DNA of 57,177 bases. Origin: a virus. Its lineage: Duplodnaviria; Caudoviricetes. The DNA lies in the IMG/VR virus record IMGVR_UViG_3300020442_001429, positions 1 through 57,177 of that record, one strand, 5' to 3'. A model generated the notes under the pieces. That model was not told where the DNA came from. It did no database searches and saw only the letters and a program-made list of their open reading frames with translations. Position numbers and translations under genes: made by a program. This document shows, piece after piece, positions 506 to 40,369 of the stretch; within the stretch, counting starts at the first letter, position 1, and every line of letters starts with the position of its first letter.

Positions 506-1024
506 ATGGCAAAGGCGAAAAAGAAGATTGATCTATCAGGCATAGAAATCACTCCCGCACCAAAAGAAAAAGAAGAACCGAAATACATCTTTAAAGATCC
601 CTATTGGTCTAACAAAAAGGCCAAACATATTATAGCGGTAGTAGAATATCCTAACGGTAAAATAGCAACAGCGTCCATTCAGGACTCAGACGGCAAAAAT
701 CCAGACTATAAAAGAATCATTGAAGAGTTCGGTGAAGAACAAATTGATGCTAATACAGAAGAAGGTTTAAAAAGACGTGAAGAAAATATAAAGAAACGTC
801 TAGCTAGAAAAGAAACTGAGGAGATTAGGCGTAAACAAGAAATGCTATTTAATACAAAATTAGAAGCATTTGAAATAGCCGCTGTTAAGGAATCTAAAAA
901 TACAGACTTAAAAAGACTTATACGAAAAGCCAAAACTCCTTTAGAGGTAGGTGCATTAACATCTATACTAATACAAGAAGATTTAATTCAACGAGGAGTA
1001 ATCAGTGGAAAAGAAGATACCTGA
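506..1024 (+). CDS. hypothetical phage protein
   Basis: 172-aa ORF with GGAG RBS and a charged helical C-terminus. Confidence 0.75.
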   Translation: MAKAKKKIDLSGIEITPAPKEKEEPKYIFKDPYWSNKKAKHIIAVVEYPNGKIATASIQDSDGKNPDYKRIIEEFGEEQIDANTEEGLKRREENIKKRLARKETEEIRRKQEMLFNTKLEAFEIAAVKESKNTDLKRLIRKAKTPLEVGALTSILIQEDLIQRGVISGKEDT

Positions 1025-2919: not shown

Positions 2920-3356
2920 TGATGGATGTAATTTTTGACGTAGACGGAACATTAATGGATATTGAACACAGAAGGCATTTTGTTGTTCAACGTCCAAAAG
3001 ACTTTGACGCTTTTAGAGAGGCAACTAGCCAGGACACTGCTAAGGAAGATATCTTCGCCGTTGCCAAAGCTCTAAAAGCAGCAGGGCACAGAATAATTAT
3101 TTCTTCAGGTAGAAATAAATCTCAACGTGCTGTAACTTTGAAACAGTTAATGGGTGCTGGTTTAGTATTTGACGCATTATACATGAGGTCAGATAAAGAC
3201 TTTAGGCCCGATGACGAAGTTAAATCTCAGATGTTAGACAAAATGATTAAAGATGGATTTAATCCTACTATGGCATTTGATGATAGACAAAGAGTCGTTG
3301 ATATGTGGAGAGACAGAGGTTTAACAGTTGCACAGGTGGCACCAGGTGACTTCTAA
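2919..3356 (+). CDS. HAD-family phosphatase (stand-alone PseT 3'-phosphatase-like domain)
   Basis: DVDGT motif I, SGR motif II, MR...DxRPD..VK, FDDR motif IV. Confidence 0.85.
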   Translation: MMDVIFDVDGTLMDIEHRRHFVVQRPKDFDAFREATSQDTAKEDIFAVAKALKAAGHRIIISSGRNKSQRAVTLKQLMGAGLVFDALYMRSDKDFRPDDEVKSQMLDKMIKDGFNPTMAFDDRQRVVDMWRDRGLTVAQVAPGDF

Positions 3357-4254
3357 CGTTAAAGCACATATCATATCTTATTTCGGTAGTAGAGACTATC
3401 CGGAAGCTAGAAAGGTGAGAGTAGATAACCACCGTAAACAGGTGGAGTTTTGGAAAGAATATTATCCTGATATGCAAATAAAAATACTTGCACAGGATTA
3501 TGATGATGAAGACTATATTGATGGGTGTTCTTACATAACACATCACGGTGGTCTACTCACACCCGGTAAAGCAAGAAATGTCCTATTACAGGACTTTTAT
3601 AATGATGAAACTTATGAATGGGCATTGATGATGGACAACGATGCAGTTCTTAAAATTCATCCAGAGTTTCCTAATATTACAGGTATGAATATTTGTGAGA
3701 CTCTTACAAATTATCCCGAAAACTTTGATGGTATAGATTTGTTTATGCCCCATTGGGACGGACGTCCTGGTGATGGAGCATTTAAGGACAAGTATAATAA
3801 TATTGATCCTAAATATCAGAACATAGATTGGAATAATGAAATGTGTTTTGATAGAAAGTTTGCTAGCTGTAAAGGAACAATTTTCTTCCTTAGGCGACTA
3901 GACAAAAAGATATATTTTAACGAAGAGTTTATGTATATCGACGGACAATTATTAGTAGGTGAAGATGACTTCTTTGCATTAGAAGTAGCAATGAACGGCT
4001 ACAAAACATATATGCTAAGGAATATTATTCTAAAAGAATTCACCTCACCAAGTACACACGCAGGAGCACAAAATACACGAAAAGCAGAAATGTTAAAAGG
4101 TGATGATGTGTTTCGTAAAGCGTATAATTTCCCTGAGGGCAGAGCTAAGTGGTATGCAAGTGCTGGTAAACAGCATGGCATCTACATGGATTCTAGAATA
4201 GTTAGGCCTTATAATAACAAATATGAACCAGCAAGTTTGGAGGACTTATTCTAA
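3346..4254 (+). CDS. GT-A glycosyltransferase, GT2 or TAGT/GREB1-like (track start 3328)
   Basis: GKARN..L, MMDND (DxD), GEDDFFALEV (ED catalytic motif). Confidence 0.6.
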   Translation: MTSNVKAHIISYFGSRDYPEARKVRVDNHRKQVEFWKEYYPDMQIKILAQDYDDEDYIDGCSYITHHGGLLTPGKARNVLLQDFYNDETYEWALMMDNDAVLKIHPEFPNITGMNICETLTNYPENFDGIDLFMPHWDGRPGDGAFKDKYNNIDPKYQNIDWNNEMCFDRKFASCKGTIFFLRRLDKKIYFNEEFMYIDGQLLVGEDDFFALEVAMNGYKTYMLRNIILKEFTSPSTHAGAQNTRKAEMLKGDDVFRKAYNFPEGRAKWYASAGKQHGIYMDSRIVRPYNNKYEPASLEDLF

Positions 4255-4931
4255 TGCCAAAAACATCTGACCAACGGATACCTAAAAAATATTTAAAAAA
4301 GGCAGGAGCTTACAAAAGAACTAAAAGTGTAAGACGTATAAACAAACATGGACTGCCGGTATTTAATACTACAAATGATGCCTCATCACATCCTGACAGG
4401 CCACAAAAATGTATGACCCCTGGTTGTGATAATAAACCAGATATAAGTGGGGGCAATAAAACAGGATTTGTTTGGAGATTTTGGTGTCAATCTTGTACAA
4501 AGGAAGAAAGAGCTAAGGAACAAGGGTTTGAAACCATGTTAGAGTATGAAGATCATATTGCTAAAAGAAATGGTTGGATAGATAACGCTGATGCTAGTAG
4601 AACAGGATATTTAAGACATAGAAAAGATTATTGTGAGAATAGAGATGGTAGCGTAATAGGTATTCCATGTCCATTAGGTGATAATCCAATTATAAATCCT
4701 GTTAATAATAGGGACGTCTTTATAGATAAGGATAATAAACGTGGTTACTATCATGGTTTAGTAGTACACGAATCTTGGAACGGACTATTACACGTCGACC
4801 ATAAGGACGGAGACCCTAGTAATAATGATCCAGAGAATTTACAAACATTATGCGTTTGCTGTCATGTAATTAAGACAGCACAAGAAGGAGACAACCACAC
4901 AGCTGGTAGAAAAGAATTAGGCATCGCCTAA
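4254..4931 (+). CDS. HNH endonuclease with Cys-rich N-terminal region
   Basis: LHVDHKDGDPSNNDPENLQTLCVCCH; extra CxxxxC and CxxC motifs. Confidence 0.85.
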   Translation: MPKTSDQRIPKKYLKKAGAYKRTKSVRRINKHGLPVFNTTNDASSHPDRPQKCMTPGCDNKPDISGGNKTGFVWRFWCQSCTKEERAKEQGFETMLEYEDHIAKRNGWIDNADASRTGYLRHRKDYCENRDGSVIGIPCPLGDNPIINPVNNRDVFIDKDNKRGYYHGLVVHESWNGLLHVDHKDGDPSNNDPENLQTLCVCCHVIKTAQEGDNHTAGRKELGIA

Positions 4932-4935
4932 TATT

Positions 4936-4984
4936 AAGGCCCTGGGCACCTCACTTACTTTACTTCAATAAGACCCAGGGCCTT
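4936..4984. terminator. GC-rich inverted repeat between convergent genes, probable bidirectional terminator
   Basis: AAGGCCCTGGG (4936-4946) pairs with CCCAGGGCCTT (4974-4984); 27-nt loop. Confidence 0.6.
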
Positions 4985-4990
4985 TCTTAC

Positions 4991-5143
4991 CTATGAAGTC
5001 CAGTGAACTCCTCGATAAGTGCCTTGTTTCATTTTAGTTGGGGAAACAGGAATGGCGTCGTGTTTAACGCCTCTGTAAATGCCTGGCAAAGACTGTGCTT
5101 TCTCTTTGGCCAGGGCTTTGTAAAATGTACCTCTATAATACAT
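4991..5143 (-). CDS. small YRG-repeat peptide (DUF4278-like), 50 aa
   Basis: MYYRGTFYK...IYRGVKH...TYRGVHWTS; AAGGAGG RBS before ATG 5143. The track start at 5221 lies inside the riboswitch. Confidence 0.8.
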   Translation of the reverse strand: MYYRGTFYKALAKEKAQSLPGIYRGVKHDAIPVSPTKMKQGTYRGVHWTS

Positions 5144-5164
5144 AATACGCCTCCTTGGTTGAAA

Positions 5165-5227
5165 GCGCGTTCCTTCGACATCATCGTCTACTTCCGTGTG
5201 TAAGTAAATGAACTTACACATGAACGT
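5165..5227 (-). ncRNA. glutamine riboswitch (glnA RNA motif, glutamine-I class)
   Basis: Minus strand ACGUUCA-UGUGUAAGU(UCAUUU)ACUUACACA-CGGAAGUAGACG(AUGA)UGUCGAAGGAACGCG: P1 CGUUC/GAACG, 9-bp P2, E-loop GGAAGUA/GAAG, P3. Confidence 0.85.
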
Positions 5228-5232
5228 AAAAA

Positions 5233-5240
5233 TATTTATA
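5233..5240 (-). promoter_or_regulatory. T4-type late promoter driving the riboswitch and peptide
   Basis: TATAAATA on the minus strand, 5 nt upstream of the riboswitch. Confidence 0.7.
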
Positions 5241-5241
5241 C

Positions 5242-5472
5242 TTAATCGTACTTAGAAAATTGCAAACGGACTAATGCCTTTCTAATTATTGCTATGACTG
5301 TTAAGAGTGAAAAATTAGCAAAAGCAGCAACTTCTGATGTCGTTTCGAAGTAATCTATGCACGTTTTGATTATAATCACACTCAAGGGGAACATTATTAT
5401 AGCACCTATAAAAGTGTCTACACTAGCTTCGTGTAATGCCCTCTTTACTTTATTATTTTTATTTTTTGCCAA
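5242..5472 (-). CDS. small two-TM membrane protein (start uncertain: 5472, 5490 or 5571)
   Basis: KRALHEASVDTFIGAIIMFPLSVII...FSLLTVIAIIRKALVRLQF; two hydrophobic segments. Confidence 0.65.
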   Translation of the reverse strand: MAKNKNNKVKRALHEASVDTFIGAIIMFPLSVIIIKTCIDYFETTSEVAAFANFSLLTVIAIIRKALVRLQFSKYD

Positions 5473-6127
5473 TCGCCATAAACCTGTCATAATAAACTTT
5501 TCCATTCCAATCATAATAGAACTGTTTAATTTTACCGCTATAATCAATGTCTTTAAGTCCTGCATTTTCAATTAGTGCTTTCTCACTATCAACGCAATTA
5601 ATACCATACATCTCTTCTATTACATTAGAGTTTTGCACAGCAAATATAGCGTGTTTATTGGCAGTTCTTAAATCATGTAACGGGTACATTTGCTCAGAGC
5701 CCATTGTTATAACTACATCTACTTTCAATTGATTTAATTCATCAAAGGCAAATGGTATATCTAAGTTCCAATGATTAACTTTTATATACTCTTCAGCAAT
5801 ATAATGTTTATTAAAAACTTTAGAAAGTTCTAATGCTTCGTTGTCTATATCTACCAAATGTAATTCTCCTATATCTAAATTTTCACATAGTAAAGGAACA
5901 AGTGGTACACCTAACCAACTATTTAATACTAGAACCTTAAATTGTTCTTCTTTCATATAGCCATCTAAACTATTTTTTAGTTCTTCGACTAGCCATATAG
6001 CCGCTTCCATTGTATTAGGATTTAGAGCCTGTCTAAAGTCGTCGTGTTTATGTTTCATTTCATGTTCAACTTTAGCAAGGCCGTCGCCCCAATGTTGTAG
6101 GTTATTTAAAAAATTAAAATTTAACAT
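5459..6127 (-). CDS. class I SAM-dependent methyltransferase-like protein with a degenerate motif I
   Basis: VLVLNSWLG (motif I-like), LHLVDID (motif II), DVVIT (motif IV); track start 6163. Confidence 0.55.
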   Translation of the reverse strand: MLNFNFLNNLQHWGDGLAKVEHEMKHKHDDFRQALNPNTMEAAIWLVEELKNSLDGYMKEEQFKVLVLNSWLGVPLVPLLCENLDIGELHLVDIDNEALELSKVFNKHYIAEEYIKVNHWNLDIPFAFDELNQLKVDVVITMGSEQMYPLHDLRTANKHAIFAVQNSNVIEEMYGINCVDSEKALIENAGLKDIDYSGKIKQFYYDWNGKVYYDRFMAIGKK

Positions 6128-6788
6128 CTTCTTTTCTTCCCATTGAATCAAATAAACAAACATAAGGTATTTGTCTATAAACTTGTAATTCTACATCATG
6201 AGGATAAACATACCCATGATTATAACTATAAAACCAACCTAAAGGAAAGTATTTTATTCTTGCTACACCCTTGTGCATAAAGAAATTATCTATCCCACGG
6301 TAGTACCATAGTATTTTTTCTAAATGTGTTTTAAAATATAGAGTGATATTTTCCTTATCCAAATTATCATTCCATCTTAAAATACTGCTATTTAAATCTG
6401 TGTATTTGTGAGGCACATGACTAGTTTCTTTTTTCATTTTATCTAAATCGTGCCAATGTGTCTGACCAAAACATAAACAGTCTTCAGGATCAAAGTTTGC
6501 TATGTCATCTATATTCTTTTGTATAATAACATCTAAGTCAAAGAATAAATTTTCACCTTTTTGTCTTACAACATTATCATCAAACAGATACATTTTATTC
6601 CACCACTTTTTTAATCTGTTTCCTTTTGGTAGTGGTATGACGGTAATATCTCTATCAATTCCTTTTGGGTTTTCAGTTAGGCAATAGAACTTAAAGTCCA
6701 TAGATAAATTTTCTTTGCACGCTTCGTAGATTTTGTCTACGTGCTGTGCAGAATATTTACTGCCCCATTTTACTGTATAGATATTCAC
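6114..6788 (-). CDS. GT-A glycosyltransferase, KWG-x-KY family
   Basis: VKWGSKYS, FYCLTE, WWNKMYLF, FFDLDV (DxD), NSSILRW, YSY; GTG start at 6788. Confidence 0.75.
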   Translation of the reverse strand: MNIYTVKWGSKYSAQHVDKIYEACKENLSMDFKFYCLTENPKGIDRDITVIPLPKGNRLKKWWNKMYLFDDNVVRQKGENLFFDLDVIIQKNIDDIANFDPEDCLCFGQTHWHDLDKMKKETSHVPHKYTDLNSSILRWNDNLDKENITLYFKTHLEKILWYYRGIDNFFMHKGVARIKYFPLGWFYSYNHGYVYPHDVELQVYRQIPYVCLFDSMGRKEDVKF

Positions 6789-6946
6789 CAGTGTCTTAAT
6801 ACTCCTGATATAATAAAGAAACAAGTAAAGAAGTTTACAAGAACAATTACTGTTCTAAAACCTGCTACTATATCTGCCTCTTTAGAATCATCGCTTGCCT
6901 TTTCTCCTAAAGATTTTGCCCATAATTTCCAATAATAATAAATCAT
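6785..6946 (-). CDS. small membrane protein, 53 aa (not in ORF track)
   Basis: MIYYYWKLWAKSLGEKASDDSKEADIVAGFRTVIVLVNFFTCFFIISGVLRHW*; overlaps both neighbours by 4 nt. Confidence 0.75.
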   Translation of the reverse strand: MIYYYWKLWAKSLGEKASDDSKEADIVAGFRTVIVLVNFFTCFFIISGVLRHW

Positions 6947-7131
6947 TCAACTTTGCTCCATGCTCTCTCGTGTAAATAATAAACAATCATTTTAATAAAA
7001 AATTCAACACCACCTATTGCCAATGCTGCACTCACGTCTCCTATAATTAACCAAGCAACCATTATAGTGGTTAAGGTTGCTATAAGTCTCCAGGATAATG
7101 TTTTTAAAAAACTCTTTTGATAACTCTCCAA
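6943..7131 (-). CDS. DUF2061-like small membrane protein
   Basis: ESYQKSFLKTLSWRLIAT...YYLHERAW signature. Confidence 0.8.
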   Translation of the reverse strand: MESYQKSFLKTLSWRLIATLTTIMVAWLIIGDVSAALAIGGVEFFIKMIVYYLHERAWSKVE

Positions 7132-7950
7132 TTATTCCCCTGTCCAATGTTTAAGTAGCTGAGGGTCAACTAATTTATCCTGTTTAGTTTTACCTCTTGT
7201 AGCATCCTCAAACGGTAATAAATCTATATTGAATACGCATAATATACAATTAGGTCTATAGATTTCTGTTGTTAAATCGTCATCGTCCCAGCTACGTCCT
7301 CGATTATATGAGTAAGCATAATCTGCTGGGAAATGATCCCATAATTTTTTACCAAAGTCACCCCATCTCCAGGAGTGATAATTATCTGTTCCGTCTGTAT
7401 ATGTAAACCAAATCTTTTCTTTATGTTCTAATACATCTTCCCATATACATTCTGCTTGATCGTCGGACCATACTTGGCAACTACCATTTGTATATGCTCC
7501 GTGTGCTAATTTAAATCTTCTTGACTTCATAGGACGTGGGTCCTGCCACCAACTTCTTAATTTAGTTGGCCTTTCCATATTGTATGTAAGTAATGGCTCT
7601 ATATCGTCCTGTATAATTACGTCCAAATCAAAGAAGATAAAGCGTCCCGTCGGCTTATCTGCTGCGAAATTGTGAGTATTAAAGACAAATGTTTTAGGCC
7701 TGTCCCAGCATCTAGCCATGCCATACTTAAAGTCATCAGAGCCGAACCAATACTTAGGATGTATGGTATCAATATCGGGAAATGGTATAACTTTAATATT
7801 TGGATCCAAGCCCTCGGCATCATCAGTATAGCAATAAAAATGGAAGTCATGTTTAGGATCAGTATGCCTTCGAGACATATCGTGAAGACGGTTGACAAAG
7901 TGCGGACCATATCTATCTCCCCATTTACTACAAACTACATTTACTCTCAT
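7132..7950 (-). CDS. GT-A glycosyltransferase, KWG-x-KY family
   Basis: CSKWGDRYG, FYCYTDD, FFDLDV, NGSCQVW, GTDNY, YSYNRG; close paralog of 9618..10391. Confidence 0.75.
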   Translation of the reverse strand: MRVNVVCSKWGDRYGPHFVNRLHDMSRRHTDPKHDFHFYCYTDDAEGLDPNIKVIPFPDIDTIHPKYWFGSDDFKYGMARCWDRPKTFVFNTHNFAADKPTGRFIFFDLDVIIQDDIEPLLTYNMERPTKLRSWWQDPRPMKSRRFKLAHGAYTNGSCQVWSDDQAECIWEDVLEHKEKIWFTYTDGTDNYHSWRWGDFGKKLWDHFPADYAYSYNRGRSWDDDDLTTEIYRPNCILCVFNIDLLPFEDATRGKTKQDKLVDPQLLKHWTGE

Positions 7951-8168
7951 CCAGCCTTCCTCGCAATGACATAGTCTGTTCCATATTGTTTACCAATATC
8001 AGCCAGCTGTTCTGTTATACGCATACATTTATAATCAAAGTCTGTTAGATCAGATCTAATAATAAGTGTTGCAAATTTGTTACTATTTTTCATCCATGTA
8101 GTATATTCATCTGAGTCGTTGAACTCACCTTCAATAATTAAAGTTTTTTCCGATTTAAGTGTTAGCAT
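7947..8168 (-). CDS. hypothetical protein
   Basis: 73-aa ORF overlapping both neighbours in the operon. Confidence 0.6.
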   Translation of the reverse strand: MLTLKSEKTLIIEGEFNDSDEYTTWMKNSNKFATLIIRSDLTDFDYKCMRITEQLADIGKQYGTDYVIARKAG

Positions 8169-9649
8169 TTTCCATCCTGTTCATTATGTATTATTGTAGG
8201 ATTTAACTTTAACAAATTATTAAAGTATCCTTTATAAAAATCATTTGTAAAAATAGTTTCTAAATCATTATTTACGATACTATTTTTCTCCCAATCATAT
8301 AATAATTCTGTTTTATGTTCTGGACTTTTATATGATGTCGTTATATTTAGTGCAACCGTTTTGCATGGGAAAACCTGTCCCTCTGCACTTAGATAAAATG
8401 AATTATTAACTTTACCTTCGCACATAATATGTGGTGCAAATTTAATTTTCCTTTCTCTATATATGTCGTCCTTTTTTCTTGTTTTTAAAGTTTCAAGTTC
8501 TATAAGTTTATAATCAGGCATTTCCTGTTTTATTTTCTTCTTAACAGTTTTCTTTTCCTCAGGTACTTCGTTATTATAAACAAAACCTGTGAACATATAT
8601 TGTTTGCAAAGTTTCTTTGCTTTTTGTATATCATTGTCCAATTGATTTGTATGTGTATATGCCCAGAATACTCTTACACCTGAGTCTAGTAATACTTTAG
8701 CATTTTGTAATACCTTTTTATCTGGATTGCCTGTGTTTATATTAAAGGTTATATTACCCAACTCCTTAAATAATGTTGCAGTATTTTTCCACCAGACTTC
8801 ATCGTGTGATATACCTTGTGTATCTAAGTCCACACTAATGACCCATTCTTTTACAAAGTAGTGAACAATGTCTACAAAGTCTGGATTATCTGTTGCATCT
8901 CCGTTTAGTCCTTTTAATTTTATTCTTTTTAGTTTTGCCTTTAGTAAAAAGTCTGGATTGAAAGACTCCTTTACTTGTTCATACGATAAGTTATTGTCTC
9001 CATCAGATAATTCTATTTCAACCTTTTGTGGAAGATACGGATAAAGGTCCGTTTCTTTATTGTACATGGCAATTTGATGTTCAGGAGTGTAATCGTCGTA
9101 CCAATGAGGCAATGCGACGACCTCCCCTTCTAATTTTTCTGGATACGTTGCTGTGGTATCTTGTAAAAAGGGTAAAGTTCCTTCTTCGATTAAAAACTTT
9201 TCATGGAACGCATCAAAGTTATATAGTAGGTCATCTTCATTTTCTTCCCACTCCTTTAATATACTTTCTATTTTATTATTACGGTAAATAAAGTAACAAA
9301 GATTACCGTCCTGAAGTCGAACCTTCTTGTTGGCCTTATAAGTCTCTATGTCCTTTATAGAGTTTAATAATATATTAGGAGTTACAAACAAACAACGGTT
9401 ATTAGAATGCGTGTGTTGCATTATATCTATTTCTAACCAATCTAATCCATACTTAGGTACATGAAAGTTTATTCCATCTAAATAACCATCTTTCTTTTTG
9501 GATGATTCAAGCAGATCCATTTCTTCCTTTTGTACAAAGACAATAAAGTCAAAAGGATCCTCAATCAGTTTCTTCGCCTGAGTATAAAAAGCGTTTATCT
9601 GTGTTTGGCTATAATTGTTATCTAGCTGATTTGCTATAAGTGTTACCAT
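8162..9649 (-). CDS. fusion of a degenerate GT-like N-terminus and a degenerate radical SAM/SPASM-like C-terminus
   Basis: N-terminus echoes the neighbouring GTs but has no DxD; C-half GD..NPDF..I, DTQG..WW and C..YLSAEGQVFPC resemble radical SAM/SPASM but there is no CxxxCxxC. Confidence 0.5.
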   Translation of the reverse strand: MVTLIANQLDNNYSQTQINAFYTQAKKLIEDPFDFIVFVQKEEMDLLESSKKKDGYLDGINFHVPKYGLDWLEIDIMQHTHSNNRCLFVTPNILLNSIKDIETYKANKKVRLQDGNLCYFIYRNNKIESILKEWEENEDDLLYNFDAFHEKFLIEEGTLPFLQDTTATYPEKLEGEVVALPHWYDDYTPEHQIAMYNKETDLYPYLPQKVEIELSDGDNNLSYEQVKESFNPDFLLKAKLKRIKLKGLNGDATDNPDFVDIVHYFVKEWVISVDLDTQGISHDEVWWKNTATLFKELGNITFNINTGNPDKKVLQNAKVLLDSGVRVFWAYTHTNQLDNDIQKAKKLCKQYMFTGFVYNNEVPEEKKTVKKKIKQEMPDYKLIELETLKTRKKDDIYRERKIKFAPHIMCEGKVNNSFYLSAEGQVFPCKTVALNITTSYKSPEHKTELLYDWEKNSIVNNDLETIFTNDFYKGYFNNLLKLNPTIIHNEQDGKC

Positions 9650-10391
9650 GCCAAAGTCTCAAAAGTTTCTCATCTTGTAATTCATCTATTTTTATTTGTC
9701 CCTCATTGTTGGGTGTCATATCAACATTGAAAAGACAAAACTTACATTCTTCTCTATATTTATGTGCCTCCAAATCATGAGGATGTGACTTTCCTCGGTT
9801 ATAACTATACACCCAATCTAAGGGTATGTTATTCCAAAAGTCTTTTTGTCTCCAAAAGTGATAGTTATCTGTACCTTTATAAAAAGTTCTAAATATTAAT
9901 TGTTCTTCTTGCATTGCGTCCCAGAAAATATGTTCACATTGATCTCTATTCCAGCACATCACACTAGAATTATAATATGTGCCTCTAATATCTATGAAAC
10001 GCCTATTGTGTATATGTTTAGGATTGTCCCATTCTACATTTATGATTCTAGGTTTTAATGATAGTTCATATAAGTCTGAAATATCATTTTGTATAATTAC
10101 ATCTAAATCAAAGTAACACCAATGTCCATCGTAACCTAAAAAGTTATGTGAGTTGAATACTAAAAACTTAGCTCTATCCCAACAATAATTTTCTTTACCA
10201 AACCAATACTTAGGATGTAATGGTTCAACGTCGGGAATAGGTTTTGTATCACAGTTTAATCCTATAGGATCGTCGGTGTAACAAGTAAAGGTAAAATTAT
10301 GCTTGTAGTTCTCCTGTACCATACGATACAGATTGTTTACATAATGTGGTCCGTATTTAGTGCCCCACTTGATGCAGACAAAGTTCATCAT
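9618..10391 (-). CDS. GT-A glycosyltransferase, KWG-x-KY family
   Basis: CIKWGTKYG, FTCYTDD, YFDLDV, NSSVMCW, GTDNY, YSYNRG. Confidence 0.75.
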   Translation of the reverse strand: MMNFVCIKWGTKYGPHYVNNLYRMVQENYKHNFTFTCYTDDPIGLNCDTKPIPDVEPLHPKYWFGKENYCWDRAKFLVFNSHNFLGYDGHWCYFDLDVIIQNDISDLYELSLKPRIINVEWDNPKHIHNRRFIDIRGTYYNSSVMCWNRDQCEHIFWDAMQEEQLIFRTFYKGTDNYHFWRQKDFWNNIPLDWVYSYNRGKSHPHDLEAHKYREECKFCLFNVDMTPNNEGQIKIDELQDEKLLRLWHGNTYSKSAR

Positions 10392-11028
10392 ATTCTTTTG
10401 CAATCTCCGGGTATTGATCCTGTCCGTTTAAAAGACAAATTGTTTTATCTTGATATGTTCTACCGTCAAACATATATGAGTATATCTCCTCTCTTGGGAA
10501 ATGTTCAAATGTAAATCCTTCATGATATAAAAATGTATCATCTCCGAAAGGATATTGTAAATGATATTTATGAGCGTTCATAGCATACTTCTTCCAAATA
10601 TGTGTGGCGTCTTTCCATGCCATAACACTAGAATTAAAATTAGATAGCGGTCCTTTTTTACTATGATATGGGAATTCATGTATATTAATACCTTCTTTCT
10701 CACCTCGTTCTTTCCAATAAGTGTAACATATTACAGGATTATGAGTACAATAATCAAACAAATGGTCTATAGGTTTTTGGATTCTTACGTCTAAATCTAA
10801 ATAAAGTATTGTTTCTCCCTCATTTGCTTTGATTTGGAATAGTTTTAACTTTTCCATATTGCCAGCAGGCTCGTGTTCTATGTTAAGAATGCCTATATCG
10901 GGATGCAAATCGGTGGGGTCATCAGTAACGCAGATGTAATTGAACTTACCCTCGGTGTGTTCGTATATCGCATTTACATCATTTGCACTGTATTTAGTGC
11001 CATATTTTAATGTCAAAATAGTTTTCAT
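10357..11028 (-). CDS. GT-A glycosyltransferase, KWG-x-KY family
   Basis: LKYGTKYS, ICVTDD, KLKLF, YLDLDV, NSSVMAW, GDD, YSY. Confidence 0.75.
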   Translation of the reverse strand: MKTILTLKYGTKYSANDVNAIYEHTEGKFNYICVTDDPTDLHPDIGILNIEHEPAGNMEKLKLFQIKANEGETILYLDLDVRIQKPIDHLFDYCTHNPVICYTYWKERGEKEGINIHEFPYHSKKGPLSNFNSSVMAWKDATHIWKKYAMNAHKYHLQYPFGDDTFLYHEGFTFEHFPREEIYSYMFDGRTYQDKTICLLNGQDQYPEIAKEYDELCLHQVGH

Positions 11029-11041
11029 ATCAATATCATTT

Positions 11042-11053
11042 TATTTATAAATA
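11042..11053. promoter_or_regulatory. overlapping divergent late promoters
   Basis: Palindrome TATTTATAAATA reads TATAAATA on + (11046-11053) and on - (11049-11042), between divergent operons. Confidence 0.75.
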
Positions 11054-11081: not shown

Positions 11082-11408
11082 ATGGCTACTGTACAGAATA
11101 TAGTTATAGATCAGGGAACGACGTTTAGTCTCGATATTACGCTGACTAATGCGGACGGAACTGCTAAGGACTTAACTTCTTACACGCCAACTAGCCAACT
11201 GCGTAAACATTACTCCAGCACAACAGCAACCGACTTTACAGTAGCCAAGGTTGACAATACAGGAGAAATTACGCTGTCTCTATCGGCAACACAAACTGCT
11301 GGACTTAAAGAAGGCAGATATGTGTACGATGTCGAAATAGCAAGCTCATCTGAAACATTAAGAGTTTTAGAAGGGCTAGTAACAGTAACGCCAAACGTAA
11401 CGAGGTAA
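11082..11408 (+). CDS. small beta-sandwich virion structural protein (baseplate- or fibre-associated)
   Basis: IDQGTTF...GRYVYDV...RVLEG.VTVTP pattern common in marine T4-like phages. Confidence 0.65.
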   Translation: MATVQNIVIDQGTTFSLDITLTNADGTAKDLTSYTPTSQLRKHYSSTTATDFTVAKVDNTGEITLSLSATQTAGLKEGRYVYDVEIASSSETLRVLEGLVTVTPNVTR

Positions 11409-28663: not shown

Positions 28664-28903
28664 TTAGTCTGTTTCTTTTACGAAAGCGTTCAGCTCCCTA
28701 GCTACTGCTATTACTTCCTTAGCAGTAATAGGTTCTAAACAACTTGTTGGAAAATCTGGATAAGCAACATCTCGTTGTTCCAAACTTCTTTGAACGTTAT
28801 TGTGATAAGCATCTAGTTTAAAGCTTCTATTTTGCTCTAAAATACATTGTGCTTGGTTGAGTAAATCGGCTCTAATTTCAAAGCCATTTCTATTATTTGA
28901 CAT
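28664..28903 (-). CDS. hypothetical phage protein
   Basis: MSNNRNGFEIRADLL...EVIAVARELNAFV; AGGAG RBS before ATG 28903 (track start 28942). Confidence 0.75.
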   Translation of the reverse strand: MSNNRNGFEIRADLLNQAQCILEQNRSFKLDAYHNNVQRSLEQRDVAYPDFPTSCLEPITAKEVIAVARELNAFVKETD

Positions 28904-28972
28904 ATTTTTCTCCTGTGTGTGTGTCTTGTCCTTTGTGGACAAAATTATTTATTCCTTTGGTTGTCTACCTAA

Positions 28973-29025: not shown

Positions 29026-29493
29026 ATGGCATATTCGAAAGAAGTAGTAAAAAGATTTGAGGAAGTAACAAACAATCCTGCTGCACATGGTGTAGGACGC
29101 TTTGATCCTAAAGACCCTAATGTAGCTACAGGACTTACAGGCGCCCCAGCGTGTGGTGATGTAATGAAGTTAGATCTAAAATTAAATCCTGATACTGACG
29201 TTATTGAAGATGTTAAATTTAAAACCTATGGCTGTGGTAGTGCTATTGCTAGCTCTAGTATGTTCGTTGAAATGCTAACAGGACTTACAATAGAAGAAGC
29301 AAAACAAATAAAAGATAAAGACATTGCCACTGCATTGGATTTACCACCAATCAAAATACATTGTTCTGTATTAGCAGAGGATAGTATTAAGAAAGCAATA
29401 GAAGATTGGGAAGAAAAGAAAGCAGGACGTAACTCTACTTGGATGGAAAAAATGGGTGCTAAACCTAGAGAGGGAGAAACTATTGCAAGCTAG
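29026..29493 (+). CDS. iscU: Fe-S cluster scaffold IscU
   Basis: GAPACGDVMKL, FKTYGCGSAIASSS, LPPIKIHCSVLAED. Confidence 0.95.
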   Translation: MAYSKEVVKRFEEVTNNPAAHGVGRFDPKDPNVATGLTGAPACGDVMKLDLKLNPDTDVIEDVKFKTYGCGSAIASSSMFVEMLTGLTIEEAKQIKDKDIATALDLPPIKIHCSVLAEDSIKKAIEDWEEKKAGRNSTWMEKMGAKPREGETIAS

Positions 29494-29857
29494 TCAATTT
29501 GACCCTAACAGTTTAATTGCTACATCTAGACCACCTTTAGTGGACTTTACAGATGAGGCACTTCAACAAGTTATGGAAAGATTAGAAAAGAATAATTCTA
29601 AAGGTATTCACTTTGGATTGACAGGCGGAGGTTGTGCAGGATTTTCTTATGTTTTTAATTATGCTAATGGACCAGCATCAGAAACTGATATAGAAATTGA
29701 TTTCGGAAAATTTAAAGTATGGATGGATGTAATGTCTGAGATGTACTTAGCAGGGACAATTATATCATGGAAAGTGGAAGGACTTAATGAAGGATTTGAA
29801 TTTATAAATCCTGCTGAACAATCTGCTTGCGGATGTGGAGTTAGCGTATCGTTTTAG
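29483..29857 (+). CDS. iscA: A-type Fe-S carrier (IscA/HesB family)
   Basis: GGGCAGFSY, F.F.NP, CGCGVS; track start 29456. Confidence 0.9.
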   Translation: MQASQFDPNSLIATSRPPLVDFTDEALQQVMERLEKNNSKGIHFGLTGGGCAGFSYVFNYANGPASETDIEIDFGKFKVWMDVMSEMYLAGTIISWKVEGLNEGFEFINPAEQSACGCGVSVSF

Positions 29858-29866
29858 GAGTATATA

Positions 29867-30022
29867 ATGGCGAGAACGTGGGCGAAAATAACGCACAGAG
29901 CAACAAAAAAGGCATCATCACAAGGTGTTGGTGGAAGAGGTAGAAGTGTAAAATGTTCTACTTCATCAATGAACAAACATAAAAAGAGAAGTTATAAAAA
30001 ATACAGAGGACAAGGTAGATGA
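29867..30022 (+). CDS. small basic protein, 51 aa (not in ORF track)
   Basis: MARTWAK...SSMNKHKKRSYKKYRGQGR*; AGGAG RBS; ATGA overlap with gp3. Confidence 0.75.
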   Translation: MARTWAKITHRATKKASSQGVGGRGRSVKCSTSSMNKHKKRSYKKYRGQGR

Positions 30023-34077: not shown

Positions 34078-34959
34078 ATGGCAAAACTTAGATATAGCGA
34101 AGCATTTTATTCAGTACAAGGTGAAGGAAGATTTGTAGGTGTTCCTAGTATTTTCCTTAGGGTGTTTGGTTGCAACTTTGAATGTAGAGGTTTTGGTCAG
34201 GAACGAGGTAAACTTATTCCTGTAGAAGAAATGCCCTATATGACAGATCCTAGAGCAGAAAAGGATAATGAAATAGCATATAAAAGTATCGAAGAACTTC
34301 CTGTTACGCCTATAGGTTGTGATAGTTCAGCATCTTGGGCGATGAAATACAAACATTTACAATTAACAAAGACAATAGACGAGGTGTTCGAACATATCGT
34401 TAGTTTACTTCCTAATGGTAAATTTGATGAGAGAGAAGATATACATTTAGTTATTACAGGTGGCGAACCTTTATTAGGTTGGCAAAGAGTTTGGCCTGAA
34501 CTATTAGAAATGTGTAAAGAAGTAGGTTTAAAGAATGTAACATTTGAAACAAATGGAACACAGAACTTACAACAACAATTTATAGATTATTTAAATGAAG
34601 ATGGAAAAGACATTCATATTACATGGTCAACATCTCCTAAATTATCTATCTCAGGTGAGGATCAATTCGATGCCCTTATTCCTGAAGCACTATTAGATAT
34701 GAACAAGGTAACTAACAGTCATTTATATAATAAATTTGTCGTTAGAGACTATATAGATTTTGAAGAAGTAGATTTATTTGTTGATGAATATAAATCTGCT
34801 GGTGTTGTTCTGGATGCAGTTTATTGCATGCCAGAAGGCGCAACATTGGAACAACAAGCCCTAACAGAAAAGGATGTTGCAGAAGCCTGTATGAAAACAG
34901 GTTACAAGTTTAGTCCAAGGTTGCATATTACATTATTCGGGAACGCATGGGGAACATAG
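34078..34959 (+). CDS. queE: 7-carboxy-7-deazaguanine synthase QueE (radical SAM)
   Basis: EAFYSVQGEG..G.P..FLR..GC, CDS, ITGGEP, ETNG, SPK, SPRLH. Confidence 0.92.
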   Translation: MAKLRYSEAFYSVQGEGRFVGVPSIFLRVFGCNFECRGFGQERGKLIPVEEMPYMTDPRAEKDNEIAYKSIEELPVTPIGCDSSASWAMKYKHLQLTKTIDEVFEHIVSLLPNGKFDEREDIHLVITGGEPLLGWQRVWPELLEMCKEVGLKNVTFETNGTQNLQQQFIDYLNEDGKDIHITWSTSPKLSISGEDQFDALIPEALLDMNKVTNSHLYNKFVVRDYIDFEEVDLFVDEYKSAGVVLDAVYCMPEGATLEQQALTEKDVAEACMKTGYKFSPRLHITLFGNAWGT

Positions 34960-35372
34960 ACGTAACTTGGAATACAATAAACGAACAAGTAGAACACATT
35001 AGTGATTTGGTAAAACAGAATAATATTGACATGATTGTTGGTATTGCAAGAGGAGGACTGGTACCAGCAGTAATGGTATCCAACAGAACAAAGGTTCCTA
35101 TGCAAAGTTTAGAGTGGCAAACAAGAGACGGAAACGGAACAGACAGGAAGAAACTTATAGAATTACAACTTGATAAATATAATTGTCTGTTCATAGATGA
35201 TATATGTGATACAGGTAAAACAATTTTTGGTATCCGAGAAGTATTTCCTGGTGCTAAGTTTGCTGTTTTATTTAACAAAATGGTTGACATGGAGCTTGAC
35301 TTTGAAGGAGTAAGACTCTATAATAATACACAATATCAAATAAAGCAATGGATAAACTTTCCGTGGGAATGA
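34947..35372 (+). CDS. type I purine phosphoribosyltransferase (Gpt-like)
   Basis: GIARGGLVPA, IDDICDTGKT (PRPP-binding loop), WINFPWE. Confidence 0.88.
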   Translation: MGNIDVTWNTINEQVEHISDLVKQNNIDMIVGIARGGLVPAVMVSNRTKVPMQSLEWQTRDGNGTDRKKLIELQLDKYNCLFIDDICDTGKTIFGIREVFPGAKFAVLFNKMVDMELDFEGVRLYNNTQYQIKQWINFPWE

Positions 35373-35380
35373 ACAGAATG

Positions 35381-35388
35381 TATAAATA
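35381..35388 (+). promoter_or_regulatory. late promoter upstream of folE
   Basis: TATAAATA followed by the hairpin GCAAC-ACAAAG-GTTGC. Confidence 0.6.
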
Positions 35389-35449
35389 TAAGGCAACACA
35401 AAGGTTGCAAATTTTAAAAACTATATCCGTGTTAGGAAGGAGAAAATAA

Positions 35450-36124
35450 ATGGCTTTTAATAAGACAAAAACTGACCCTGAATTGGGTCTTAAAATTCAC
35501 GAACACTTAGTCAAGTGTGGAGTAGAAACCCCCGTAGTAGATAATGGACTCACTCGTACAGAGAAGATTGAGATTATCAAAGATAAATTTACTGACATTA
35601 TGAATGTTATGGGACTAGATTTATCTGATGACAGTCTTATGGACACACCTAATCGTGTCGCTAAGATGTATATTAACGAGATCTTTTGGGGTCTAGATTA
35701 CGAGGCGTTTCCTAAATGTACAGCAGTTGAAAACAAAATGGAATATGAAAGTATGGTTGTTGAACGTAACATAAATGTTCAATCCAACTGTGAACATCAT
35801 TTTGTAGTCATTGATGGCGTAGGAACTGTGGCGTATATTCCAAACAAAAAGGTTTTAGGATTAAGTAAACTTAATCGTATAGTAGAATACTTTGCTAAGA
35901 GACCACAAATACAAGAACGTTTGACAGAACAAGTATATTATGCACTACAATACATTCTCGATACAGATAATATTGCAGTAGTTATAGATGCTCAACATTA
36001 TTGCGTAAAGAGTCGTGGTGTAGAAGACGTAGGTTCGTCTACTATTACAAGTAAACTAGGTGGAGGGTTCAAAGATGACCCAGCACTTAGAGCAGAGTTT
36101 ATGAACTTGATTGCTAGAAAGTAA
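35450..36124 (+). CDS. folE: GTP cyclohydrolase I
   Basis: TPNRVAKMY, CEHH, GLSKLNR, RPQIQERLT, HYC..SRG. Confidence 0.96.
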   Translation: MAFNKTKTDPELGLKIHEHLVKCGVETPVVDNGLTRTEKIEIIKDKFTDIMNVMGLDLSDDSLMDTPNRVAKMYINEIFWGLDYEAFPKCTAVENKMEYESMVVERNINVQSNCEHHFVVIDGVGTVAYIPNKKVLGLSKLNRIVEYFAKRPQIQERLTEQVYYALQYILDTDNIAVVIDAQHYCVKSRGVEDVGSSTITSKLGGGFKDDPALRAEFMNLIARK

Positions 36125-39908: not shown

Positions 39909-40369
39909 ATATGAAAACATTTAAATATTATTCTACAAAAACTTATGGACACGAAGAAGGTTTGTCTTGTGTATTTAGACAACCTAATGCTACACATAGC
40001 CATTGCAGTTTACTACATGGTTATTCTTTGTCCTTTAGTTTTGAATTTGCATGTCAAAGTTTAGACGACAAAAATTGGGTTGTAGACTTTGGTGGATTAA
40101 AAGAACTAAAACAATGGTTGAAGGACAATTTCGACCACAAATTTGCAGTTGCAAAGGATGATCCTGCACTACAAGATTTTCTAGAACTAGAACAAAAAGG
40201 ACTAGCAGATGTTGTTGTAATGAATGGTGTAGGTTGTGAAAAGTTTGCAGAACAAGCATTTCACTTTGCCAGTGACTTAGTAAGTAAAAAAACTAATGGC
40301 AGATGTTACGCAACACAATGTGAAGTAAGAGAACACGGGGCTAATTCAGCGATATATAGGGCAGTCTAA
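39905..40369 (+). CDS. queD: 6-carboxytetrahydropterin synthase QueD
   Basis: HCSLLHGY, WVVDFG, FDH, E..AE, EH..NSA. Confidence 0.9.
   Translation: MNMKTFKYYSTKTYGHEEGLSCVFRQPNATHSHCSLLHGYSLSFSFEFACQSLDDKNWVVDFGGLKELKQWLKDNFDHKFAVAKDDPALQDFLELEQKGLADVVVMNGVGCEKFAEQAFHFASDLVSKKTNGRCYATQCEVREHGANSAIYRAV

What the first reader, a model, noticed from the sequence alone, without database searches (positions are those of the whole stretch)
4991..5240. Glutamine riboswitch under a T4 late promoter controlling a YRG-repeat peptide
Seen: TATAAATA, then a complete glnA-motif fold, then the AAGGAGG RBS about 10 nt after P1, then a 50-aa peptide with three YRG repeats. Established: glnA-motif RNAs bind glutamine and are best known from cyanobacteria and marine metagenomes; glutamine riboswitches often precede DUF4278/YRG peptides. 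Inference: an apparently non-cyanobacterial phage senses host nitrogen status late in infection and gates a small effector, for example for lysis timing or glutamine synthetase control.
Basis: partly seen in the sequence, partly recalled or inferred. Interest (0 to 1): 0.75.

Follow-up and report, generated by a model that had tools for sequence, protein, structure and literature searches.

The report
Phage glutamine riboswitch gating a small peptide
A marine T4-like phage that probably infects a non-photosynthetic bacterium carries a compact, movable unit (late promoter, glutamine-sensing RNA, 50-residue basic peptide, terminator) that should make the peptide only late in infection and only when cellular glutamine is high.

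Summary
TATAAATA (5240-5233) is followed by a full-length Rfam glutamine aptamer (5228-5164; 51.5 bits, threshold 35), AAGGAGG, and a 50-aa ORF (5143-4991) with YRG at residues 3, 23 and 43, then a strong hairpin. Eight related viral contigs keep the promoter box, aptamer and linker nearly invariant while the ORF drifts in a coding-like way.

The 7 nt after P1 (CGCUUUC) pair with the Shine-Dalgarno region (GGAGGCG). This helix covaries across 69 distinct viral leaders. It matches the published ON-switch model, in which glutamine frees the ribosome site.

The phage is T4-like. Its 99%-complete relative lacks psbA/psbD and hli, and its portal branches outside the cyanomyophages, so the host is probably a heterotroph. 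The unit sits at a different genome position in that relative, as a clean insertion at a late promoter.

Glutamine riboswitches in SAR11/OM43 myophages and the aptamer-DUF4278 link in cyanobacteria are both published. New here: their combination in such a phage, the late-promoter drive, the unit's mobility, and the fact that phage glutamine riboswitches precede many classes of small basic peptides. The peptide's target is unknown.

The parts
5233..5240 (-). T4-type late promoter box TATAAATA. The predicted transcript start is A5227, one nucleotide before P1.
   Evidence: Exact motif. It is invariant in 9 of 9 aligned copies, while the 30 nt upstream drop to 10-13 of 30 identical in the distant copies. 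14 of 14 such boxes in the window lie just upstream of ORF starts. Box geometry, with its first base at -13, is from Geiduschek and Kassavetis 2010 (PMC2988020, passages). The start site itself was not measured.
5164..5228 (-). Glutamine riboswitch aptamer (glnA RNA, type 1). P1 is 5226-5222 paired with 5172-5168.
   Evidence: RF01739 at 51.5 bits against 35, full model (the same hit). 8 of 8 related loci hold it at the same offset, 51.5-56.5 bits. It is 60-61 of 65 identical in copies whose ORF is only 104-110 of 150 identical.
5148..5167 (-). Expression platform. CGCUUUC (5167-5161, starting with the C directly after P1) pairs with GGAGGCG (5154-5148), which covers the Shine-Dalgarno sequence. 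The loop is 5160-5155.
   Evidence: 7 bp, -8.0 kcal/mol in isolation. The leader folds at -29.1 kcal/mol with the helix enforced and at -20.6 with the region held open. The terminator-like scan picked it up independently. Covariation across viral leaders is shown.
5150..5156 (-). Shine-Dalgarno sequence AAGGAGG, 6 nt before the ATG.
   Evidence: Read from the sequence. Invariant in 9 of 9 copies.
4991..5143 (-). 50-aa basic peptide gene, with net charge +7 by my own count of residues and three YRG units 20 residues apart. It is DUF4278-like.
   Evidence: ORF. Pfam DUF4278 scores 24.9 bits against a 25.3 cut-off, E 2.6e-5. There are 11 homolog clusters at 62-100% identity. Against the distant copies there are 11-12 synonymous and 15-18 non-synonymous codon changes, most at third positions. 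The nearest Atlas clusters are DUF4278.
4936..4984 (.). Long GC-rich hairpin between the peptide gene and the convergent HNH endonuclease gene (4254-4931, plus strand). It is probably a two-way terminator.
   Evidence: -28.1 kcal/mol. 8 of the 9 aligned copies have a hairpin after the stop codon, with different sequences between subgroups; L009 ends before its stop.

Best explanation
This is a self-contained late-gene unit of a marine T4-like myovirus. The phage's late transcription machinery starts an mRNA at about A5227, so the glutamine aptamer forms the very 5' end of the RNA. When glutamine is low, the seven nucleotides directly after P1 pair with the Shine-Dalgarno region and block ribosome binding. 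When glutamine is bound, the first of these nucleotides (C5167) is drawn into the aptamer's long-range pair, the blocking helix is weakened, and the 50-aa peptide is translated. It is a translational ON switch. The peptide is therefore made only late in infection and only when cellular glutamine, meaning nitrogen supply, is high. The peptide is a small, strongly basic DUF4278-like protein. I infer that it binds an acidic host target in nitrogen metabolism, with glutamine synthetase as the leading but unproven candidate. Shown here: the anatomy, its conservation, the covarying helix, the promoter's positional signal, the unit's mobility, and the likely heterotroph host. Inferred: glutamine binding, the ON direction (taken from experiments on the cyanobacterial homolog), the transcript start, and the peptide's target.
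For: The aptamer is well above the Rfam threshold, and so are those of 8 of 8 relatives. The promoter box, aptamer and linker are kept at 8/8, 60-61/65 and 18/20 identity in copies whose ORF is 104-110/150 identical and whose upstream flank is 10-13/30 identical. A helix anchored at the C after P1 reaches 5 bp or more in 44 of 69 unique viral leaders, against 30% of cross-paired controls. The mean length is 4.59 against 3.24, and 0 of 2000 permutations reach the observed mean. Compensatory variants include CACCU/AGGUG, CACUU/AAGUG, CACUC/GAGUG, CAUCU/AGAUG and CGCUUUC/GGAGGCG. Klahn 2018 (PMC6212724, passages) showed experimentally that the Synechocystis gifB aptamer raises expression with glutamine, and proposed this same helix. 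Promoter: 14 of 14 TATAAATA boxes sit before ORF starts, and a TAAATA motif ends 4-9 nt before P1 in 27 of 70 unique viral leaders, against about 0.7% expected. The ORF shows a coding-type substitution pattern. DUF4278 is the top Pfam family for 15 of the 17 YRG peptides tested. Short contigs at 99% identity or more, from metatranscriptomes of 3 studies, lie over 5019-5278 and bridge aptamer and ORF (weak evidence). Host: G001, whose portal is 84% and major capsid protein 95% identical and which is rated 99% complete, has no psbA/psbD and no hli. The portal tree puts the window and G001 (100/100) outside the clade holding all 7 cyanomyophages (89/93).
Against: Nothing here measures glutamine binding, the transcript start or translation. 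The blocking helix costs about 8.5 kcal/mol to open in the nearest-neighbour model. That is more than a weakly binding ligand is likely to pay, so the switch may work by fraying or kinetically. The helix is followed by a U-rich stretch and was flagged as terminator-like, so attenuation is not excluded. 25 of 69 leaders lack an anchored helix of 5 bp or more; some YRG classes start it 2 nt later or show none. My permutation test does not correct for shared ancestry. One RNA-library contig runs 38 nt upstream of the promoter box, which means read-through or DNA carry-over. The peptide is 0.4 bits below the DUF4278 cut-off, and its structure model has low confidence (pLDDT 60.9, pTM 0.22). DUF4278 is the IF17 part reported as dispensable for inhibiting glutamine synthetase. 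The host is unknown. The deeper branches of the portal tree are unresolved, and a long Rhizobium-phage branch falls inside the cyanophage clade.
Confidence: 0.62

Rival explanations
1. The sensor is the same but the read-out differs. The hairpin after P1 acts as a glutamine-controlled intrinsic transcription terminator, alone or together with ribosome-site masking.
For: The terminator-like scan called 5168-5147 (8 pairs, 4 of them G-C, 6-nt loop) followed by a tail with 5 or more T in 8 bases.
Against: The tail is interrupted and contains the start codon itself. In other viral leaders the helix is followed by only two U before the AUG. The helix always engulfs the Shine-Dalgarno bases, which fits translational control.
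Confidence: 0.1
2. The regulation is as in the best explanation, but the peptide does not touch glutamine synthetase. It is a general basic micro-protein, for example one that neutralises nucleic-acid charge in the virion, binds the ribosome or RNA, or acts on another nitrogen-related target. Its nitrogen-rich synthesis is simply permitted only when nitrogen is plentiful.
For: All 79 complete peptides called downstream of viral glutamine aptamers are net positive (mean +5.7), yet they fall into 10 blastp clusters with no common motif. Only 12 of 78 other ORFs in the window are net positive. Expression is late, when virions are built. DUF4278 is not the part of IF17 that inhibits glutamine synthetase. 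G001 and the window encode no glutamine synthetase.
Against: In cyanobacteria the aptamer-DUF4278 pairing is tied to control of glutamine synthetase. Bolay 2018 describes a Prochlorococcus DUF4278 protein as sharing physicochemical properties with the inactivating factors (passages). No evidence links these peptides to virions.
Confidence: 0.3
3. It is an OFF switch: glutamine binding stabilises a structure that hides the ribosome site, so the peptide is made under nitrogen shortage.
For: Nothing in my calls. From memory, an OFF reading has been suggested for the related type-2 aptamer on structural grounds; I did not check this.
Against: The type-1 and type-2 aptamers both raised expression after an ammonium upshift in reporter assays (Klahn 2018, passages). 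The blocking helix here starts at the nucleotide that the bound state needs.
Confidence: 0.07
4. The real gene is the 76-aa ORF (5221-4991) found by gene callers, and the Rfam match is a coincidence inside a coding region.
For: 8 of 11 homolog clusters in the protein database are recorded at 76-78 aa, reading through the aptamer.
Against: The Rfam match is 16 bits above threshold. The extension has no ribosome site, whereas a perfect one precedes the internal ATG. The extension varies less than the rest and only in RNA loops. Two clusters and the Mosig-type and other cargo genes start right after the aptamer.
Confidence: 0.01

Closest known systems
Type-1 glutamine riboswitch in the gifB (IF17) leader of Synechocystis and other cyanobacteria (Klahn et al. 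2018, PMC6212724)
   Same: The same Rfam family. The same kind of downstream gene (DUF4278). The same proposed platform, in which the C after P1 and the following bases pair with the ribosome site. An ON response to glutamine is expected.
   Different: Here the unit sits in a phage that is probably not a cyanophage. It is driven by a T4-type late promoter rather than an NtcA-repressed host promoter. The product is only 50 aa and has no room for the C-terminal IF7-like part that inhibits glutamine synthetase. The unit moves between genome positions.
Glutamine riboswitches reported in OM43 phage Melnitz, SAR11 phage Mosig and pelagimyophage assemblies (Buchholz et al. 2022, PMC9004378)
   Same: Marine T4-like myophages of heterotrophs carrying one RF01739 aptamer. 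I confirmed Melnitz and Mosig. By portal path length they are the window's nearest isolates.
   Different: In the passages I read, that paper treats the aptamer as controlling ssrA or lysis and mentions no downstream peptide. I find a small ORF with a masked ribosome site right after each aptamer: 32 aa in Melnitz, unannotated, and 51 aa in Mosig, Mosig_00116. Neither is a YRG peptide and neither matches Pfam. The window's cargo is DUF4278-like.
Type-2 glutamine riboswitch (Downstream-peptide motif, RF01704) with short DUF4278 proteins in Prochlorococcus and Synechococcus (Weinberg 2010, PMC2864571; Klahn 2018)
   Same: Short DUF4278 peptides of 17-100 aa under a glutamine aptamer, lacking the IF17 C-terminus. 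Their function is unknown.
   Different: The aptamer class differs: the window matches RF01739, not RF01704. The published cases are host genes, not phage genes.
Promoter-stem-loop mobile cassettes of T4-type phages
   Same: Small genes bracketed by a phage promoter and a stem-loop that shuffle between genome positions.
   Different: Those cassettes use early promoters, as I recall. This one uses a late promoter and carries a metabolite sensor. The comparison rests on memory only.

Membership tests
Rfam RF01739 glutamine riboswitch (glnA RNA, type 1) | Covariance-model score at or above the curated gathering score, over the whole model | tested here: met
   51.5 bits against 35, model positions 1-53 of 53, E 1.9e-8 (repeated).
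Rfam RF01739 glutamine riboswitch (glnA RNA, type 1) | Lies in the 5' leader of a same-strand gene | tested here: met
   The aptamer ends 20 nt before the ATG of the 50-aa ORF. The offset is the same in 8 of 8 relatives.
Rfam RF01739 glutamine riboswitch (glnA RNA, type 1) | Expression platform in which the nucleotide after P1 and its neighbours pair with the ribosome site (model of Klahn 2018) | tested here: met
   7-bp helix at 5167-5161 with 5154-5148, -8.0 kcal/mol. It covaries across 69 viral leaders.
Rfam RF01739 glutamine riboswitch (glnA RNA, type 1) | Selective binding of L-glutamine | not testable with these tools
   Needs in-line probing or calorimetry.
Pfam PF14105 DUF4278 | HMM score at or above the curated cut-off (25.3 bits) | tested here: inconclusive
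   The window peptide scores 24.9 bits, E 2.6e-5, 0.4 bits short. L003, 94% identical, scores 25.2. Two other viral YRG peptides pass (L049 at 30.2, L073 at 26.5). DUF4278 is listed for 16 of the 17 YRG peptides tested at E up to 0.1 and is the top family in 15. 3 of 11 homolog clusters carry a precomputed PF14105 label. The nearest Atlas clusters are DUF4278 (score 0.90, 211 of 256 features shared).
Pfam PF14105 DUF4278 | Preceded by a glutamine aptamer, the usual context in cyanobacteria (25 of 28 genomes, Klahn 2018) | tested here: met
IF17 (gifB) glutamine synthetase inactivating factor | C-terminal IF7-like region needed to inhibit glutamine synthetase | tested here: not met
   The peptide is 50 aa and consists of three YRG units. 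The Pfam match covers residues 22-49 against the DUF4278 model only, and DUF4278 is the N-terminal part of IF17. There is no room for a further domain. I did not align it to IF17 itself.
IF17 (gifB) glutamine synthetase inactivating factor | Inhibits glutamine synthetase | not testable with these tools
   Needs an enzyme assay, and the host is unknown.
T4-type late promoter | 8-bp TATAAATA box with no -35 element, about one helical turn before the start site | tested here: met
   The box is exact and invariant in 9 of 9 copies, with an unconserved upstream flank. Geometry is from PMC2988020.
T4-type late promoter | The motif is used as a promoter in this genome | tested here: met
   14 of 14 boxes lie 0-89 nt before same-strand ORF starts, including those of the sheath, tube, scaffold and major capsid genes. 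This is positional evidence only.
T4-type late promoter | Mapped transcript 5' end; presence of gp55 and gp33 | not tested
   The RNA-library contigs cannot show ends. I did not search for gp55 or gp33. The clamp-loader genes are present.

The most novel reading that the evidence does not exclude
Marine T4-like phages, including those of SAR11 and OM43, share a portable nitrogen-status module. A glutamine ON-riboswitch is placed at the very 5' end of an RNA, by a late promoter or by processing of an upstream tRNA or tmRNA. It gates one of many interchangeable small basic peptides, and the whole unit inserts at late promoters. If so, the published view that the Melnitz aptamer controls ssrA would be wrong: it would control an unannotated 32-aa gene. 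The DUF4278 peptides of cyanobacteria would then be one branch of a much wider set of glutamine-gated micro-proteins that phages use to retune host nitrogen metabolism.
Probability: 0.5. Interest if true: 0.72.

Novelty: new variant of a known kind. Interest (0 to 1): 0.55.

Why it matters
Riboswitches are rare in phages, and what the marine phage examples control has been unclear. This case has a complete and readable logic: phage late timing AND high glutamine leads to one micro-protein. It sits in a phage lineage abundant enough to appear in marine metagenomes from more than ten studies. It links the unexplained DUF4278 peptides of cyanobacteria to phages of other hosts. It also gives comparative support, from many independent phage leaders, for the proposed ON-switch helix. 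Finally, it offers a short and easily synthesised set of peptides whose targets could show how phages read and adjust host nitrogen status in the nitrogen-limited ocean.

Tried and rejected
- Near-identical DNA search of 3000-9000 against isolated phages: no match.
- tblastn of the peptide against isolated phages: no match.
- blastn of the leader against isolated phages: no match.
- Cellular genomes (one per species): only a 15-residue partial match in a gut MAG, which I discount. This gave no host clue. The patterns used were specific to this peptide clade.
- Unconstrained folding of the leader did not recover the native aptamer, as expected for a fold with non-canonical elements. I used constrained folds instead.
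- Structure prediction of the peptide: pLDDT 60.9, pTM 0.22, with a short helix and a C-terminal hairpin. This is too weak for a fold search, so none was run.
- Complex prediction with glutamine synthetase: not run, because the host enzyme is unknown and a stand-in would not be informative.
- Curli pore CsgG and glutamine synthetase in G001 and the window: none found.
- RNA-library contigs: parts of the 1-kb stretch without cover, and the low depths, are not interpreted.
- My first start-codon rule wrongly chose GTG inside GGAGGGTG-type ribosome sites. It was replaced by a rule that prefers ATG.
- Blastp single-linkage merged some peptide classes through a chimeric member, L041, so the number of classes is approximate.

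Full report
**1. What is there**

All elements lie on the minus strand:
- TATAAATA at 5240-5233.
- A glutamine aptamer at 5228-5164.
- A 20-nt linker containing AAGGAGG (5156-5150).
- ATG at 5143 and a 50-codon ORF ending at TAG 4993-4991.
- A GC-rich hairpin at 4984-4936 (-28.1 kcal/mol). It faces the end of a convergent HNH endonuclease gene (4254-4931).

The aptamer is the only Rfam family above threshold in the window: RF01739, 51.5 bits against a gathering score of 35, the whole 53-position model, E 1.9e-8.

The peptide has YRG at residues 3, 23 and 43 and is strongly basic. Gene callers often read a 76-aa ORF through the aptamer; 8 of 11 database clusters are recorded at 76-78 aa. That longer form has no ribosome site and is an artefact.

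**2. Is the promoter box meaningful?**

By count it is not. There are 14 TATAAATA sites against 9.04 expected, and 9 of 100 shuffles reach 14.

By position it clearly is. All 14 sites lie 0-89 nt upstream of a same-strand ORF start, and 13 lie within 61 nt. They include the sites before the sheath, tube, scaffold and major capsid genes. Only 5.6% of strand-specific positions lie within 80 nt upstream of a start.

The T4 late promoter is an 8-bp box whose first base is at -13 (PMC2988020, passages). That puts the start at A5227, one nucleotide before P1 (5226-5222). The aptamer would therefore form the very 5' end of the mRNA. The start site was not measured.

**3. Conservation**

The peptide has 11 homolog clusters at 62-100% identity. 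Eight viral contigs encode it, and 8 of 8 have the aptamer above threshold at the same offset.

In the four complete distant copies (L005-L008):

| Region | Identity to the window |
|---|---|
| 30 nt upstream of the box | 10-13 of 30 |
| TATAAATA box | 8 of 8 |
| Aptamer | 60-61 of 65 |
| Linker | 18 of 20 |
| ORF | 104-110 of 150 |

The few aptamer changes lie in loops, or turn a G-U pair into A-U. The ORF differs by 11-12 synonymous and 15-18 non-synonymous codons, with most changes at third positions. 8 of the 9 aligned copies end in a hairpin, with different sequences between subgroups; L009 is cut before its stop.

**4. How the switch probably works**

Directly after the P1 3' strand (5172-5168) comes CGCUUUC (5167-5161). 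It can pair with GGAGGCG (5154-5148), which covers the Shine-Dalgarno bases. The helix has 7 bp and a 6-nt loop, at -8.0 kcal/mol in isolation. The whole leader folds at -29.1 kcal/mol with P1 and this helix enforced, and at -20.6 with the region held open.

Klahn et al. 2018 (PMC6212724, passages) showed that the Synechocystis gifB aptamer raises expression when glutamine rises. They proposed that the C after P1 and its neighbours pair with the ribosome site, and that glutamine binding melts this pairing.

I tested that idea comparatively.
- 79 of those 80 hold RF01739 above threshold; L022 does not.
- Among 69 unique leaders (the window, Melnitz and Mosig included), a helix anchored at that C reaches 5 bp or more in 44. 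The figure is 30% when leaders and ribosome sites are cross-paired.
- The mean length is 4.59 against 3.24, and 0 of 2000 permutations reach the observed mean.
- The helix changes on both sides together: CACCU/AGGUG, CACUU/AAGUG, CACUC/GAGUG, CAUCU/AGAUG, CUCUUU/AAGGAG and CGCUUUC/GGAGGCG.

Limits of this test:
- The permutation does not correct for shared descent.
- 25 leaders lack such an anchored helix.
- The 8.5 kcal/mol cost of opening suggests fraying or kinetic control rather than full melting.
- The terminator-like scan also flagged this hairpin, which has a U-rich tail, so attenuation remains a minor rival.

**5. The peptide**

- Pfam DUF4278 is the only match, at 24.9 bits against a cut-off of 25.3.
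- I submitted 17 viral YRG peptides: the window's, three relatives, and 13 of the 19 unique ones from the scan. The six peptides of 16-18 aa are below the tool's length limit and were left out.
- DUF4278 is listed for 16 of the 17, is the top family for 15, and exceeds the cut-off for 2.
- The nearest Atlas clusters are DUF4278.
- DUF4278 covers the N-terminal part of IF17. That part is reported to be dispensable for inhibiting glutamine synthetase but to promote stability. The short Prochlorococcus DUF4278 proteins have no proven function (Bolay 2018, PMC6316151, passages; Klahn 2018).
- The structure model is of low confidence.

So the peptide is a probable DUF4278 relative. Its target is unknown, and glutamine synthetase is a candidate, not a finding.

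**6. The phage and its host**

The window carries the T4-type structural and replication modules:
- neck proteins, sheath, tube, portal, prohead protease, scaffold and major capsid;
- terminase, UvsW, UvsY, gp46/47, clamp loader and RegA;
- IscU, IscA, a protein with a TonB-receptor plug domain, peptide deformylase, ClpP, peroxiredoxin, CobS-like ATPase and 7-deazaguanine pathway genes.

Evidence on the host:
- The portal is 51-53% identical to those of SAR11, OM43 and cyanobacterial myophages alike.
- G001 is a 170,236-bp record rated 99% complete. Its portal is 84% identical and its major capsid protein 95% identical to the window's.
- G001 has the cassette but no psbA/psbD, no hli, no glutamine synthetase and no CsgG.
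- In a 16-taxon portal tree, the window and G001 pair at 100/100 support. They lie outside the clade holding all 7 cyanomyophages (89/93). By path length they are nearest to HTVC008M, Mosig and Melnitz.
- The backbone of that tree is unresolved, and a long Rhizobium-phage branch sits inside the cyanophage clade.

A heterotroph host is likely but unidentified.

**7. The unit moves**

L003 (peptide 94% identical) is syntenic with the window. In G001, L007 and L006, however, the cassette lies between the major capsid gene and iscU, on the opposite strand to both.

Aligned to the window's capsid-iscU gap, the aptamer, ORF and hairpin appear as one clean insertion of about 290 nt. It sits between a late-promoter box and the ribosome site of a small gene. 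In the window, that box (AATAAATA) drives that gene's homolog directly. In those three loci a second TATAAATA overlaps the peptide's stop codon.

The unit therefore behaves as a self-contained, relocatable late gene.

**8. Wider picture**

Downstream of the viral aptamers my script called a complete ORF of 10 aa or more in 79 of 83 entries (the window, the 80 loci, Melnitz and Mosig). They fall into 10 blastp single-linkage clusters, of sizes 24, 18, 15, 7, 5, 4, 3, 1, 1 and 1.
- 20 of the 80 scanned loci encode a peptide with YRG.
- All 79 peptides are net positive (mean +5.7), against 12 of 78 other ORFs in the window.
- A TAAATA motif ends 4-9 nt before P1 in 27 of 70 unique leaders, where about 0.7% is expected.
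- Eight loci have tandem aptamers.
- In four loci the aptamer follows a tmRNA gene, and in two it follows a tRNA gene.

Isolated phages:
- Melnitz and Mosig each have one aptamer; HTVC008M and P-HM2 have none.
- Mosig's aptamer precedes Mosig_00116 (51 aa).
- Melnitz's aptamer overlaps the annotated 3' end of ssrA and precedes an unannotated 32-aa ORF with a masked ribosome site. The only gene annotated at that spot is on the other strand.
- Relatives of both peptides recur in the viral contigs.

**9. Prior art**

- Buchholz et al. 2022 (PMC9004378, passages) reported the aptamer in Melnitz, Mosig and pelagimyophage assemblies. They noted that the OM43 host lacks it, and read it as controlling ssrA or lysis. 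I saw no mention of a downstream peptide in the passages I read.
- Cyanophage papers mention only that the riboswitch occurs in T4-like cyanophages (PMC9602691 and PMC9964418, passages).
- Weinberg 2010 (PMC2864571, passages) described the motif, tandem copies, and short ORFs after the related Downstream-peptide motif.
- Full-text searches for 'glutamine riboswitch' with 'phage' (22 papers), 'DUF4278' (6 papers), 'glnA RNA' with 'cyanophage' (4 papers), and riboswitch/glutamine/virome/small ORF (39 papers) turned up no description of a phage-encoded DUF4278 gene or of the peptide repertoire.
- Subscription journals and supplements were not covered.

**10. Occurrence and expression**

The 1-kb stretch is held almost whole by 14 marine DNA runs. 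Two of these may be the source sample.

Contigs from RNA libraries of three studies, at 99% identity or more, cover 5047-5197, 5019-5181 and 5055-5278.
- They bridge the aptamer and the ORF.
- They are shallow (depth 2-7.6).
- One runs past the promoter box.
- DNA carry-over cannot be excluded.

This is weak support for transcription and says nothing about the start site.

**11. Verdict**

It is a new variant of known things: a known riboswitch class and a known cargo family, in a phage setting that was only partly described. The new features are late-promoter drive, mobility, and a broad repertoire of basic micro-proteins. The peptide's function remains the open question.

Noticed in passing
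L017 (Melnitz MZ577097.1), locus 799-965, plus strand: The Melnitz aptamer overlaps the annotated 3' end of ssrA. It is followed by an unannotated 32-aa ORF whose ribosome site is masked by the post-P1 helix. The only gene annotated at that spot lies on the opposite strand. Similar peptides follow tmRNA-plus-aptamer arrangements in L051, L053, L080 and L090.
   Followed up: partly
L029, L033, L045, L066, L077, L078, L087, L096: Two glutamine aptamers in tandem, both above the Rfam threshold, precede one small ORF. In several of these loci it is a 45-49-aa peptide ending in a proline-aromatic motif.
   Followed up: partly
L074 and L078; L051, L053, L080, L090: The aptamer starts within about 15-35 nt (L074, L078) or 0-6 nt (the tmRNA loci) after the end of a tRNA or tmRNA gene. 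Processing of that RNA, like a late promoter, would leave the aptamer near the 5' end of the downstream message.
   Followed up: no
L041: A chimeric cargo peptide. It has one YRG unit at the N-terminus, joined to a lysine/glutamine-rich C-terminus like the peptides of L020, L021, L030 and L064. This suggests modular exchange between cargo classes.
   Followed up: no
window 11042-11053: Two overlapping TATAAATA boxes on opposite strands sit between divergent genes (10357-11028 minus, 11082-11408 plus). This is an apparent two-way late promoter heading the 12-gene minus-strand block that ends with the riboswitch cassette.
   Followed up: no
window 34078-36124 and 39905-40369: A 7-deazaguanine (queuosine-precursor) gene set: QueE-like radical SAM enzyme, a phosphoribosyltransferase, GTP cyclohydrolase I and a 6-pyruvoyl-tetrahydropterin synthase homolog. 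This suggests modified DNA bases.
   Followed up: no
window 29026-29857 and 45240-46790: IscU and IscA homologs directly after the capsid gene, and a 516-aa protein with a TonB-dependent-receptor plug domain. These are unusual phage cargo and point to a Gram-negative heterotroph host.
   Followed up: no
window 29867-30022: A 51-aa ORF with net charge +16, the most basic product in the window. It has no family match.
   Followed up: no
window 28664-28942, minus strand: A 92-aa gene under an AATAAATA box lies in the capsid-iscU gap. In G001, L007 and L006 the riboswitch cassette is inserted between this box and the gene's ribosome site.
   Followed up: yes
L029 589-676, L066 48-131, L067 1-181: Other Rfam cis-regulatory motifs lie within a few hundred bases of the glutamine aptamers: freshwater-2 RNA in L029 and L066, and manA RNA in L067.
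   Followed up: no
window 5242-5490, minus strand: A small hydrophobic ORF of about 82 aa from the internal ATG. Its stop codon lies 1 nt before the cassette's TATAAATA box. It has no family match.
   Followed up: no
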